A DNA stretch of 46,428 bases, from IMG/VR virus record IMGVR_UViG_2622736468_000002. The stretch is one strand, 5' to 3'. Below are positions 21,001 through 24,000 of the stretch, in pieces. Made by a program: the position numbers. Position 1 is the first letter of the stretch. The number at the start of each line of letters is the position of its first letter. This stretch comes from a virus (Duplodnaviria > Heunggongvirae > Uroviricota > Caudoviricetes).

Positions 21001-24000
21001 TGGAGAAAAACATCAGAGTGCCATTGAGTGAACCCCAGAAAGCGGGGATCGCGTCATTCTGTCCGTACAACATTGGCCCCGGTAAGTGTTTTCCGTCGAC
21101 GTTTTATAAACGAATTAATGCAGGTGATCGCAGGGGAGCGTGTGAGGCGATTCGCTGGTGGATTAAGGACGGTGGCAGAGACTGCCGTATTCGTTCAAAC
21201 AACTGCTACGGTCAGGTATCCCGTCGTGACCAGGAGAGCGCGCTGGCGTGCTGGGGTATCGACAGATAAGCAGAATATTTTGCTGAAAAATAAGGTATGG
21301 CCACGCGGGCGGATAACACGAAATCCTGCGAACTGACAAAAACTAAGTGAATAAAAGTAAAAACCCCGTTTGTTGGCTGCAAGCGGGGTTTTGTGTTTCC
21401 TGACTCTGGAAAAGTCAAAGGAGAAAGTGTGTTTGATTTTAGCAAACTGATTCGGGAGATTCGAGTGATGGCTGAAAAATTATCCACCTGGAAGTTCATT
21501 CTTATCTGGCTGGTGTTTGTGATTATGGCCTCCGGTTATTTCATCGGTCAGATACGCTGGTGGTGAAATGAACCGCGTACTGTGCGTGGTCATCATTGCC
21601 CTGCTGGTGGCCTGTGGTGCGCTTAGTCTGGGGCTGAATCATTACCGTGATAACGCCATAACCTACAAAGAGCAGCGCGATAAAAAAGTCAGTGAGCTGG
21701 AGCTGGCAAATGCAACCATTACTGATATGCAGCAGCGCCAGCGTGATGTTGCTGCACTTGATGCCAGATACTCGAGGGAATTAGCCGATGCGAGAGCTGA
21801 AAATGAAACTCTTCGCGCTGACGTTGCCGCTGGTCACCGCAGCCTGCGGATCAACGCCACCTGTCCAGGTCCCGTGCGTGAAGCCACCGGCACCGCCCGC
21901 GTGGATAATGCAACCGGCCCCCAACTGGCAGACACCGTTACACGGGATTATTTCACCCTCAGAGAGCGGCTGATGACGATGCAGAAGCAACTGGAAGGGG
22001 CACAGGACTATATCCGCACTCAGTGCCTGAAATAAGTTTTGCTGATGCGCGGTATTGTCGCCGTATCCCCGCATTAACAGAGACCGCAGCCCGACAGGGA
22101 GACTCCTCTGCGCGAGTGTGCGGGGATAATCAAAAACGATACACACCGGGGTTTACCGCGTTAACGGAGCGCGGCGTTGTCCCCTCATAGTCGCCTGTCC
22201 GGTGCGATGGTGGAAGAAGCCGGATGTTTATCACTATTAATTGATGACACAGAAATGGATTCATTGAATTTCAGCACGTTTTTGTATTCGTGTTATTGAA
22301 CATCTGTTTATTTTACTTTTAACATATTGATAATAAAAAGAGCTGTAAATCTTTAGATGAGTCGATTTTGTCCGGGGAAGTTCAAATGGATTTTATGCTG
22401 ACGGTTTCTGGTGTGGTTATCCTGTCCATTGCTTATACTGCAGATAAATATGGCTGCCATTTGTTATCACGTATTGGCGCTTATTGTTCGTTGATGCTGA
22501 TTTTCTCGTCGCTTTTTTTTGAGTAAGTTATATTAATTATAACAAATAATTTTCTGTGTTATTTTTTCAGGCTATCCCGTCAGAGGGGAAGCCTGTACTG
22601 CCAGGGAGCGAATGGAAAACTGATGTGTCCGGTAACTGCGTGTTCTGTGAACACCATGTTACTTAATTATGTAATTCATACCCGAACTCTCTGTTGACAG
22701 CCTTCTTCTGCAGGCTTCAATAACCCACGCTGAAAAGTTTCCTGAACCTTTCAGATCAAGAGCGATGTTAATTTGTTCAATCATCTGGTTTGGAAATCGG
22801 ATGTTGCGGGTTGTTGTTCTGCGCGTTCTGTTCTTTGATGACATAATGTTTCCCCATATTCAGTGTTGCTGATTTGTATTATCAGAAGTTGCTTTTACGT
22901 TAATTTGACGCAGATCAATTAATACGATACCTGCGTCATAATTGATTATTTCTCGTGGTTTGATGGCGTACACACATGTTGTGATAAACCTTATATAGAT
23001 GATAATCATTATCATTTCGTGGGTCCTTTCCGGCGATCCGACCGGTTACGGGGCGGCGACCTCGCGCGTTTTCACTATTTATGAGATTTTTTGAGGGGGT
23101 GGTTGTTGTTTAATTGTTTGGTATATCTAATTGATAAGTAAGGTGAAAATAAAATAAATACAACAACCTTACGATGTGTTTTGATGTCGTCAATGCGAAA
23201 AATGTCAATGATATCAAATGGTTTTGCAAAAACACATGGTTGTTGTTTCGCTTTTTATCGATGACTTATGGAGAGGAGATGGCCTTTTTATTGAATAAAA
23301 GTGATATGGCCTCCTCCATCGGTATCTCTGTTCAGGCATTTGATAAATGGGGCGTTCCTCCTGTTGAACGTCGGGGGAGGGAAGTTTTATATGACGTTAA
23401 AACTGTACTGGAGATAGATCGCGAGCGGCGACAACACAATCAGAGAACACCTGATGACGGGGGAGAACTGGAGGAAAGGCTGCTTCGGGCCAGAGCTGAA
23501 CTGACAGAAGAACAGGCTGTAGCTCAAAAACTTAAAAATCAGGTAACCGAAGGTAAGCTCATCGATTCAGACTTCTGCGTTTTCGCCCTCAGCAAACTGG
23601 CGATGGCATTGTCCAGTACGCTTGATTCCATTCCGTTATCCATGCAGCGACAGTTCCCGGATTTAACGCCACGTCATATTGACCATCTGAAAACCCTTAT
23701 TGCAAAGGGCGCAAATCAGTGTGCGCGGGCAGGGGATAAATTACCGGATTTGCTGGATGAATATATCAGAGCAACAACTGAATAATATGTTGGCCGCCGT
23801 TTCGGTTGCGCTGCAGCCTCTGGTCAGGGTTGTACCGATGACGGCAGTTGAATGGGCTGACCAGTATTATTATCTGCCGAAAGAATCCTCATACGGTGAC
23901 GGCGAATGGAAAACGCTGCCGTTCCAGATCGCCATCATGAACAGTATGGGGAATGATCAGATCCGCACTGTTAATCTGATTAAATCTGCCCGTGTTGGCT

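What the first reader, a model, noticed from the sequence alone, without database searches (positions are those of the whole stretch)
22380..22850. Arc-like RHH gene and convergent small membrane peptide between Rz and cos
In the AT-rich interval between Rz and cos, where lambda carries bor, there is a well-formed minus-strand gene for an Arc/Mnt-like ribbon-helix-helix protein (22659..22844, with RBS) and a convergent 46-aa very hydrophobic ORF (22386..22526, with RBS) that is not in the ORF track. A small membrane peptide next to a small repressor is reminiscent of toxin-regulator or immunity/exclusion modules.
Basis: inference. Interest (0 to 1): 0.5.

Follow-up and report, generated by a model that had tools for sequence, protein, structure and literature searches.

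The report
Two unrelated prophage cargo genes
Both small genes are really there in this lambda-like E. coli prophage, but they are separate pieces of cargo: a widespread, uncharacterised DNA-binding protein that phage lambda also carries, and a rarer tiny membrane peptide on its own insertable cassette, not a toxin-regulator pair.

Summary
Both ORFs sit exactly where stated, each with a GGGGAA ribosome-binding site, and RefSeq already annotates both.

The minus-strand gene (22659-22844) belongs to the YlcI/YnfO family (DUF3950). It is under very strong purifying selection (dN/dS about 0.04). A ribbon-helix-helix fold is probable but only weakly shown. The same gene lies in the same place, next to the packaging genes and antisense to the late operon, in K-12 DLP12 and Qin. 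It is also present, unannotated, in phage lambda. Its core occurs in 77% of complete E. coli genomes.

The 46-aa ORF (22386-22526) is an E. coli-only orphan, present in 13.5% of genomes. It is predicted to form two hydrophobic helices. The evidence that it is coding is only marginal.

The interpretation as a toxin-regulator or immunity module is not supported. The peptide lies on an AT-rich cassette of about 450 bp that assorts independently of ylcI. Some phages have ylcI without the cassette. Others have the cassette followed by terminase genes and no ylcI. The two genes converge and share no promoter region.

Verdict: ordinary lambdoid cargo of unknown function, and low interest. The more interesting residue is YlcI itself, a strongly conserved and uncharacterised lambda gene.

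The parts
21568..22035 (+). Rz (i-spanin), with Rz1 embedded at 21788-21973. This is the last gene of the lysis cassette and the left anchor of the region.
   Evidence: ORFs. RefSeq calls it 'lysis protein' in the identical locus L001. Layout compared with lambda.
22036..22235 (.). Conserved GC-rich non-coding block just after Rz. It is present whether or not the peptide cassette follows. Its right edge is the left junction of the cassette.
   Evidence: Nearly invariant in alignments A1 and A8. Found at 4520 places in 1891 E. coli genomes, almost always with nothing annotated. No Rfam match. Folding is no better than shuffles, z -1.2 and -0.5.
22236..22385 (+). AT-rich leader of the peptide cassette (26-30% GC). 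It has a conserved core at 22300-22345 holding weak promoter-like hexamers: plus strand TTGAAC-17-TAACAT, read by eye, and minus strand TTTACA-17-TATGTT at 22349->22321. The ribosome-binding site GGGGAA is at 22374-22379.
   Evidence: Composition. Core identity is 91-100% across three lineages, while the whole leader is 78% identical to SHP24. The minus-strand site comes, where the number of sites found is no more than in shuffles. The plus-strand hexamers are my reading and fall below the scanner's threshold.
22386..22526 (+). 46-aa hydrophobic ORF, MDFMLTVSGVVILSIAYTADKYGCHLLSRIGAYCSLMLIFSSLFFE. It runs in the same direction as the late operon.
   Evidence: RefSeq WP_000347013.1. The ORF is kept in three lineages at 83-95% nucleotide identity with no internal indels, and only this frame is open in all three. 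dN/dS is 0.31 and binomial p about 0.05. AF2 gives helices 2-22 and 24-44 at pLDDT 73. No match in Pfam, NCBIfam, PHROGs or PADLOC.
22527..22658 (.). Fast-evolving 132-nt spacer between the two converging genes. Positions 22602-22627 are a frameshifted relic of the start of a 91-aa gene (MDKTDVSG...) that follows the cassette in the contigs lacking ylcI.
   Evidence: 67-77% identity with indels between lineages. Homology to L169 ends at about 22634. Alignment A7. The only terminator-like hairpin, at 22640-22654, is within what shuffles give.
22659..22844 (-). YlcI/YnfO-family (DUF3950) gene of 61 aa, a probable ribbon-helix-helix DNA-binding protein, antisense to the late operon. Codons 1-48 are the conserved core. 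The last 12 or so codons (STESSGMNYIIK) travel with the peptide cassette. The ribosome-binding site GGGGAA is at 22855-22850.
   Evidence: Family matches (phrog_949). dN/dS about 0.04 against lambda, DLP12, Qin, SHP24 and O157 copies. Fold evidence. The C-terminal tails differ between prophages.
22906..22946 (.). Interleaved inverted repeats upstream of ylcI: TGACGCAG/CTGCGTCA and ATCAATTA/TAATTGAT. They are a candidate operator or promoter element, or part of the left side of cos.
   Evidence: Pairs I3 and I10. Almost invariant in lambda, DLP12, Qin and SHP24; one base of the first arm differs in those copies. Absent where ylcI abuts an HNH/HK97-type packaging module.
23051..23062 (+). cosN cohesive-end sequence GGGCGGCGACCT. 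A Nu1-like terminase small-subunit ORF follows from about 23279.
   Evidence: Read. The region matches the lambda right end at 87%, and phage DE3 annotates it as 'cos site'. Terminase genes are annotated in L001.

Best explanation
The interval between Rz and cos holds two independent accessory genes, brought next to each other by lambdoid mosaic recombination.

(1) ylcI is a standard, strongly conserved lambdoid gene. It lies antisense to the late operon, immediately before the packaging genes. It encodes a small basic protein with a probable ribbon-helix-helix fold. By analogy with RHH proteins in general, I infer that it binds DNA as a dimer through its N-terminal Arg/Thr-rich arm and beta-strand. 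I also infer that it is expressed from the prophage, as antisense moron genes usually are, and that it most likely autoregulates through the inverted repeats at 22906-22946. None of these three steps is shown.

(2) The 46-aa ORF sits on a separate AT-rich cassette of about 450 bp, inserted between the conserved GC-rich block and the 3' end of ylcI. It is probably a real two-helix membrane peptide. Because it points the same way as the late operon, it should at least be transcribed late by Q-antiterminated read-through from pR'. This is inferred from lambda biology. Whether it also has its own promoter is open. I think its most likely action is at the inner membrane, for example modulating lysis timing or excluding other phages. 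That step is a guess.

The peptide is not a partner of YlcI.
For: Shown by tool results:
- ylcI family membership.
- dN/dS about 0.04, with 16-17 synonymous against 4 non-synonymous differences from lambda, DLP12 and Qin.
- The same position and orientation in DLP12, Qin, lambda (unannotated ORF, complement 48109..48303), SHP24, O157 and DEC9B prophages, with varying neighbours.
- ylcI core at 9562 places in 4184 of 5426 genomes, against the peptide cassette at 788 places in 734 genomes.
- Presence/absence of the cassette at one site: GC block directly followed by ylcI in vB_EcoS-569R3.
- The cassette without ylcI, followed by terminase genes (TerL on record), in L169-L171, with a relic of the neighbouring gene's start in the window's spacer.
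- The AT-rich composition of the cassette.
- RHH-compatible model and hits (weak HicB-like match).
- ORF kept in three lineages with conservative replacements (V/I, S/A, L/V, M/I, F/L) and a conserved ribosome-binding site and start codon.
- Two-helix model for the peptide.

From the literature: genes antisense to lytic genes are typical prophage accessory loci expressed in lysogeny (PMC7067206). K-12 ylcI is transcribed and overlaps convergent ybcW transcripts (PMC12288877).
Against: - In 77 of 77 IMG/VR loci with enough downstream sequence, the peptide ORF is followed by ylcI at a fixed 133-140 nt. In practice the two usually travel together. These copies are nearly identical, however, so this is mostly one recently spread block.
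- The 11-mer TATTAATTGAT occurs exactly twice in the 46-kb window: once at the cassette's left edge (22235) and once upstream of ylcI (22914). This could be a shared binding site. It was chosen after the fact and is not conserved in SHP24.
- Coding evidence for the peptide is only marginal: p about 0.05, and the ORF would stay open by chance in about 48% of simulations of the SHP24-level divergence.
- No expression data were found for either gene in this prophage.
Confidence: 0.72

Rival explanations
1. One reading: the hydrophobic peptide is a membrane toxin or exclusion factor, and the adjacent RHH protein is its dedicated repressor or immunity regulator, forming a two-gene module.
Against: At most about 8% of ylcI copies in E. 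coli have the cassette. ylcI occurs without the cassette, and the cassette occurs without ylcI. The genes converge, with a fast-evolving spacer and no shared promoter. The ylcI upstream repeats are conserved in lambda, DLP12 and Qin, which lack the peptide. The 11-mer is not conserved in SHP24.
Confidence: 0.06
2. The 46-codon ORF is not a gene. The AT-rich cassette is non-coding (regulatory DNA, an RNA, or a junction remnant), and the ORF is open by chance and merely called by PGAP.
For: No homolog exists outside E. coli, and only 13 protein clusters were found. Substitutions fall 8/6/10 across codon positions 1/2/3. The excess of synonymous changes is marginal (p about 0.05), and chance survival of the ORF is about 0.48. 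The ORF is only slightly better conserved than its leader (83% against 78% versus SHP24). Rare frameshifted alleles exist (P0128, P0130). It is not listed among novel small genes in O157:H7 Sakai Ribo-seq supplements.
Against: Only this frame is open in all three lineages. There are no internal indels, whereas the spacer has many. The ribosome-binding site and ATG are conserved. Replacements keep the hydrophobic pattern, and the loop motif ADKYG..LLSRIGAYC is invariant. The ORF was intact in all 60 sampled genomes and all 80 viral loci.
Confidence: 0.22
3. The cassette is a type I toxin-antitoxin-like unit. In this reading the peptide is a membrane toxin held in check by an antisense RNA: either one from the divergent minus-strand promoter-like site at 22349->22321, or the 3' end of the converging ylcI transcript (an excludon).
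For: The peptide is small and hydrophobic. A minus-strand promoter-like site lies inside the conserved AT-rich core. K-12 ybcW-ylcI is listed as a convergent excludon (PMC12288877).
Against: Promoter-like sites are no more frequent than in shuffles. The minus-strand -35 is degraded in SHP24. No terminator or stable structure was found for an sRNA. Rfam gives nothing. The cassette survives without ylcI. Two hydrophobic helices in 46 aa is unlike Hok, Ldr, TisB or Ibs (my knowledge).
Confidence: 0.06
4. YlcI acts in DNA packaging or control of terminase rather than as a lysogenic regulator. In this reading it binds the conserved DNA left of cos, or modulates the terminase small subunit. This rival concerns YlcI only and is compatible with the peptide being independent cargo.
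For: ylcI always lies immediately before the packaging genes, whether these are lambda-type cos/Nu1 or HNH plus HK97-type terminase. One satellite protein fuses DUF3950 to a weak Terminase_2 (TerS) match (P0206 in L173). Family members occur in P4-like and PICI satellites.
Against: The gene is antisense to the late transcript that makes terminase. More distant family members sit in unrelated contexts, for example between what I read as sopB and pipD in Salmonella SPI-5. The fusion is a single metagenomic example with a weak match. The known PICI packaging redirector Rpp is a winged HTH, not an RHH (PMC6739421). As far as I know, lambda packaging in vitro has never been reported to need such a factor.
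Confidence: 0.1

Closest known systems
E. coli K-12 YlcI (DLP12) and YnfO (Qin), and the unannotated 64-aa ORF of phage lambda at complement(48109..48303): the YlcI/YnfO family, DUF3950, PHROG 949
   Same: The core is about 90% identical over residues 1-52. The orientation (antisense to the late operon) and the position immediately before cos and the terminase genes are the same. The upstream DNA through to cos is also conserved.
   Different: The C-terminal tail after about residue 48 differs (STESSGMNYIIK here), and so does the gene on the far side: ybcW in DLP12 and lambda, ydfO in Qin, the 46-aa ORF here. No member of the family has a known function.
P22 Arc and Mnt, and RHH antitoxins (TacA, Rv0298, the HicB C-terminal domain)
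   Different: There is no significant sequence or HMM match to any RHH family or solved structure. It is not in an immI or ant context, has no co-transcribed toxin partner, and DNA binding is untested.
Lambdoid 'morons' between Rz and cos, such as lambda bor, lambdap78 (ybcV/ydfO) and lambdap79 (ybcW)
   Same: The same genomic slot, an AT-rich insert, presence/absence between otherwise similar phages, and dispensability for lytic growth expected. This fits the general pattern described in PMC7067206.
   Different: bor is antisense and is a lipoprotein with a known phenotype. The 46-aa ORF runs with the late operon, has no lipobox, no proven promoter or terminator of its own, and no known function.
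Type I toxins (Hok, Ldr, TisB, Ibs, ShoB, ZorO)
   Same: A small hydrophobic peptide on a mobile element, with a possible divergent promoter nearby.
   Different: It has two hydrophobic helices rather than one. No antisense RNA, family match or toxicity has been shown. The comparison with the toxins' architecture rests on my own knowledge.

Membership tests
YlcI/YnfO family (Pfam DUF3950 PF13132; NCBIfam NF041551) | Score above the curated cut-off of the family HMMs | tested here: met
   PF13132: 67.5 bits against a cut-off of 25 (E 9e-19). NF041551: 35.2 bits against 30. phrog_949: E 9e-32.
YlcI/YnfO family (Pfam DUF3950 PF13132; NCBIfam NF041551) | Lambdoid prophage context: just before the packaging genes and antisense to the late operon (a feature of the close subfamily only) | tested here: met
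   Same arrangement in DLP12, Qin, lambda, SHP24, O157, DEC9B and vB_EcoS-569R3. Members at 36-60% identity sit in other contexts.
Ribbon-helix-helix (MetJ/Arc) superfamily | Beta-strand, helix A, turn, helix B topology of about 45 residues | tested here: inconclusive
Ribbon-helix-helix (MetJ/Arc) superfamily | Dimerisation through an antiparallel beta-ribbon, and sequence-specific DNA binding | not testable with these tools
   Only monomer prediction was available. This needs AF-multimer, EMSA or ChIP.
P22 Arc/Mnt family | Sequence membership (Arc HMM) and an immI context regulating ant | tested here: not met
   No Pfam family other than DUF3950 matched at E up to 1, for this protein or for any of 26 relatives. 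The context is Rz-cos, not immI.
Type II toxin-antitoxin module with an RHH antitoxin | Toxin and antitoxin co-transcribed in one operon and inherited together | tested here: not met
   The genes converge across a 132-nt spacer. ylcI occurs without the peptide and the peptide without ylcI. Copy counts are 9562 against 788 places.
Type I toxin-antitoxin | A small hydrophobic toxin plus a cis- or divergently encoded antisense RNA | tested here: inconclusive
   The peptide is hydrophobic. One minus-strand promoter-like site was found, within chance expectation. There is no Rfam match, terminator or stable fold. Toxicity is untested.
Prophage moron (accessory cassette) | A discrete insert, present or absent between otherwise collinear phages, with composition different from its flanks | tested here: met
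   vB_EcoS-569R3 lacks about 450 bp (roughly window 22240-22690) between the GC block and ylcI. GC is 26-32% inside against 53-58% in the block to the left.
Prophage moron (accessory cassette) | Its own promoter and terminator, and expression in the lysogen | tested here: inconclusive
   Only weak hexamers lie in the conserved core. There is no convincing terminator, and the T8 run forms the last codons of the ORF. No expression data were found.
Holin / antiholin | Transmembrane domains plus a charged hydrophilic C-terminus, encoded at the head of the lysis cassette | tested here: not met
   The C-terminus is FSSLFFE. The ORF lies after Rz, and a class II holin is already annotated upstream. 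No holin family matched.

The most novel reading that the evidence does not exclude
The overlooked item here may be YlcI rather than the peptide. It is a probable RHH protein encoded by phage lambda itself, though missing from NC_001416, and by prophages in 77% of complete E. coli genomes. It is under very strong purifying selection and always sits against the packaging genes. It could have a real, undescribed role at or near cos: control of terminase expression, of late-transcript read-through, or of packaging-site choice. The single DUF3950-TerS-like fusion in a satellite island and the family's presence in P4-like and PICI satellites hint at this. A weaker variant is that convergent ylcI transcription gates the neighbouring cargo gene, here the membrane peptide, as an excludon.
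Probability: 0.12. Interest if true: 0.6.

Novelty: new member of a known kind. Interest (0 to 1): 0.22.

Why it matters
As a toxin-regulator module it would have been a new prophage-borne system, but the evidence says it is not one.

What remains is modest. First, it is another example of the Rz-cos cargo slot of lambdoid phages taking up small cassettes, here an orphan membrane peptide carried by about 13% of sequenced E. coli, including O157:H7 and O104:H4.

Second, one of the best-studied viruses still carries an unannotated, strongly conserved, probably DNA-binding gene (ylcI) with no known function. A lambda knockout and a DNA-binding assay would be cheap and could close that gap.

Tried and rejected
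- Rfam scan of 21900-23400 at E up to 1: only chance-level hits.
- PDB sequence searches with YlcI alone and with a 26-sequence profile: nothing.
- PADLOC: no match for either protein, so neither belongs to a catalogued defence system.
- PHROGs: nothing for the window peptide. The SHP24 allele has a chance-level hit, E 0.046.
- Looking for more distant peptide homologs by word-indexed protein search, tblastn of phages and an IMG/VR scan: only near-identical E. coli copies, plus one lineage at 81% nucleotide identity and one at 90%.
- Literature: no paper names either RefSeq protein or the peptide sequence. The O157:H7 Sakai small-gene Ribo-seq supplements do not list it. The 'orf-64' in the lambda CRISPRi study is a different ORF, lambdap73 between Q and S.
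- The idea that YlcI equals the PICI packaging redirector Rpp: rejected, because Rpp is a winged HTH.
- My first impression that the ylcI core was conserved even at synonymous sites, suggesting a cis-acting DNA element rather than a protein: wrong. dS is 0.8-0.9 against lambda-type copies while dN is 0.04.
- The GC-rich block 22036-22235 as a structured RNA: no support from folding z-scores.
- A scripting slip: my Nu1 query was out of frame, so the Nu1 column of that output should be ignored.
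Full report
**What is there.** The window is a lambda-like prophage of E. coli. The 1025 bases from the Rz stop to cos are 100% identical to many E. coli chromosomes.

The order of features is as follows:
- Rz at 21568-22035, with Rz1 embedded at 21788-21973.
- A GC-rich non-coding block at 22036-22235.
- An AT-rich stretch.
- A plus-strand 46-aa ORF at 22386-22526.
- A 132-nt spacer.
- A minus-strand 61-aa ORF at 22659-22844.
- About 200 bp of DNA that is conserved with the right end of lambda.
- The cohesive-end sequence GGGCGGCGACCT at 23051-23062.
- A terminase small-subunit ORF.

Both small ORFs have GGGGAA 5-6 nt before their ATG. RefSeq already annotates both genes: WP_000347013.1 as 'hypothetical protein' and WP_001329960.1 as 'YlcI/YnfO family protein'. 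Both exact proteins are recorded on about 1000 or more contigs.

**The minus-strand gene.** It matches DUF3950 (PF13132, E 9e-19) and NCBIfam YlcI_YnfO_N, both above their cut-offs, and PHROG 949, which has no known function.

The K-12 genes ylcI (DLP12) and ynfO (Qin) occupy the same position, next to nohD and nohA and antisense to the lysis genes. Phage lambda has a 64-aa homolog at complement(48109..48303) that NC_001416 does not annotate.

The DNA from cos to about codon 48 is shared among the window, lambda, DLP12, Qin and SHP24. The C-terminal tails differ.

The protein is clearly real and constrained. Over codons 1-48, the window differs from lambda-type copies by 16-17 synonymous and 4 non-synonymous changes, giving dN/dS of about 0.04.

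An exhaustive HMMER search found only 106 representative clusters. The genuine distant homologs keep the pattern K..K(S/T)..K-(N/G)IRFP-h..LIE.I....-NFSAWV(I/L)(D/E)AC..KL.

**Is it ribbon-helix-helix?** This is probable but only weakly shown.
- The AF2 model (pLDDT 73) has an extended segment at residues 14-18 and helices at 19-32 and 37-55.
- Foldseek and PDB sequence searches returned nothing useful.
- hhalign places TTRNIRFPNQMIEQINIALDLKG on Arc's strand and helix A, with a pairwise E of 0.014.
- A weak PHROG match falls on a HicB-like family.

By HMM the protein is not a member of Arc/Mnt.

**The small ORF.** The product is MDFMLTVSGVVILSIAYTADKYGCHLLSRIGAYCSLMLIFSSLFFE. It is very hydrophobic (GRAVY 1.11) and AF2 models it as two helices, 2-22 and 24-44. 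It matches no family in Pfam, NCBIfam, PHROGs or PADLOC.

Homologs are confined to E. coli. There are 13 protein clusters, and the DNA occurs in 734 of 5426 complete genomes. All but one copy are at least 95% identical. Only two phage records carry it.

Three lineages exist: the window/O157 type, a type 90% identical in nucleotides (P0127, L169-L171) and a type 81-83% identical (SHP24). All three keep the ORF, the ribosome-binding site and the ATG, with no internal indels, and only this frame is open in all three.

Replacements are mostly conservative and dN/dS is 0.31. The statistics are nevertheless marginal. The binomial p is about 0.05, and an ORF like this stays open by chance about 48% of the time at the SHP24 level of divergence. 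I put the chance that it is a real translated peptide at roughly 70-75%.

**Are the two genes a module?** No.
- The ylcI core is found at 9562 places in 4184 genomes, and the peptide cassette at 788 places in 734 genomes.
- Lambda, DLP12 and Qin have ylcI with other neighbours: ybcW or ydfO.
- Phage vB_EcoS-569R3 has the GC block joined almost directly to ylcI. It lacks about 450 bp, roughly window 22240-22690. That stretch comprises the AT-rich leader, the ORF, the spacer and the last dozen codons of the window's ylcI.
- Conversely, contigs L169-L171 carry the cassette followed on the same strand by a 91-aa gene and a large terminase, with no ylcI. Homology to the window stops at about 22634.
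- The window's spacer still contains a frameshifted relic of that 91-aa gene's start, MDKTDVSG, at 22602-22627. This shows that the junction with ylcI arose by recombination.

In IMG/VR, 77 of 77 loci with enough sequence do have ylcI 133-140 nt downstream. These are near-identical copies of one block, however, set in varying flanks.

The genes converge and share no promoter region. An 11-mer, TATTAATTGAT, occurs only at 22235 and 22914 in the whole window. I picked it after seeing it, and it is not conserved in SHP24. I keep it only as a weak lead.

**How it most likely works.**
- *Shown:* ylcI is a conserved, constrained lambdoid gene. The peptide ORF lies on an independently assorting AT-rich cassette.
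- *Inferred from established lambda biology:* the plus-strand ORF lies within the Q-dependent late transcript that runs from pR' through cos. It should therefore be transcribed late whether or not it has its own promoter. ylcI is antisense to that transcript, like bor. Such genes are typically expressed from the prophage (PMC7067206). K-12 ylcI is transcribed and overlaps convergent ybcW transcripts (PMC12288877).
- *Inferred by analogy:* YlcI binds DNA as an RHH dimer. The interleaved inverted repeats at 22906-22946 are conserved in lambda-type copies and are the obvious candidate operator. They are absent where ylcI abuts an HNH/HK97-type packaging module.
- *Guess:* the peptide acts at the inner membrane, for example on lysis timing or exclusion.

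**Comparison with known systems, and novelty.** The RHH gene is an ordinary member of a known but uncharacterised family. The peptide is an orphan small ORF in the classic moron slot of lambdoid phages. Neither a type II nor a type I toxin-antitoxin architecture is met, and no defence-system model matches.

I rate the finding as a new member of a known kind, with low interest. The most interesting residue is that lambda itself carries this strongly conserved, unannotated and unstudied gene. A single satellite protein fuses DUF3950 to a weak TerS-like domain, which hints at a link to packaging, but that is one example only. The known PICI packaging redirector Rpp has a different fold.

Noticed in passing
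window 22036-22235: A GC-rich block of about 200 nt directly after Rz is more conserved than anything around it. It occurs at 4520 places in 1891 E. coli genomes, almost always with no annotation, and part of it matches the borD-ybcV intergenic region of a K-12-like strain. It contains a perfect 10-bp inverted repeat (22064-22073 / 22119-22128). There is no Rfam hit and no significant folding signal. What it does is unknown.
   Followed up: partly
L005 3110-3304 (lambda NC_001416 complement 48109..48303): Phage lambda encodes a 64-aa YlcI/YnfO homolog just left of cos that the reference record does not annotate. It was therefore not covered by the genome-wide CRISPRi essentiality map of lambda (PMC10695390).
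   Followed up: partly
window 22999-23013: ATGATAATCATTATC, part of the palindrome ATGATAAT/ATTATCAT, lies about 40 bp left of cosN. It matches 15 consecutive positions of the Fur-box consensus as I remember it (GATAATGATAATCATTATC). It is conserved in lambda, DLP12 and Qin. A plus-strand promoter-like site (TTGTGA-16-GATAAT, 22979-23006) overlaps it.
   Followed up: no
window 22906-22946: There are two interleaved 8-bp inverted repeats (TGACGCAG...CTGCGTCA and ATCAATTA...TAATTGAT), arranged A-B...A'-B'. They are almost invariant across lambda-type prophages, with one base of the first arm differing. The arrangement cannot form a simple hairpin, so it is more likely protein-binding DNA.
   Followed up: partly
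window 21393-21566: Another small ORF with a hydrophobic segment (…KFILIWLVFVIMASGYFIGQIRWW) lies between the lysozyme gene and Rz. A different small hypothetical ORF is annotated at the same spot in DEC9B (L008 630-767).
   Followed up: no
L048/L049 4001-4171; L053, L083, L084, L087 around 4001-4204; L173 4714-5103: Distant YlcI-family members (36-55% identity) sit in other contexts. One lies between what look to me like sopB and pipD in Salmonella arizonae and diarizonae SPI-5. Others sit in P4-like or PICI satellite islands with integrase, AlpA and primase. In several satellites a long antisense ORF overlaps them. One satellite protein (P0206) fuses DUF3950 to a weak terminase small-subunit domain.
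   Followed up: partly
L011-L043 (genome-contig hits): Dozens of 'genomes' of unrelated organisms (Streptomyces, Cohnella, Pedobacter, Flavobacterium and various MAGs) contain lambda-type ylcI at about 90% protein identity to the window's copy, often on contigs of about 3.5 kb. This looks like contamination by lambda control DNA, not real distribution of the gene.
   Followed up: no
window 22508-22515: A T8/T9 length polymorphism lies at the very end of the small ORF. T8 gives ...LFFE-stop and T9 gives ...LFF-stop (DEC9B, SHP24). The homopolymer tolerates slippage without destroying the ORF.
   Followed up: yes
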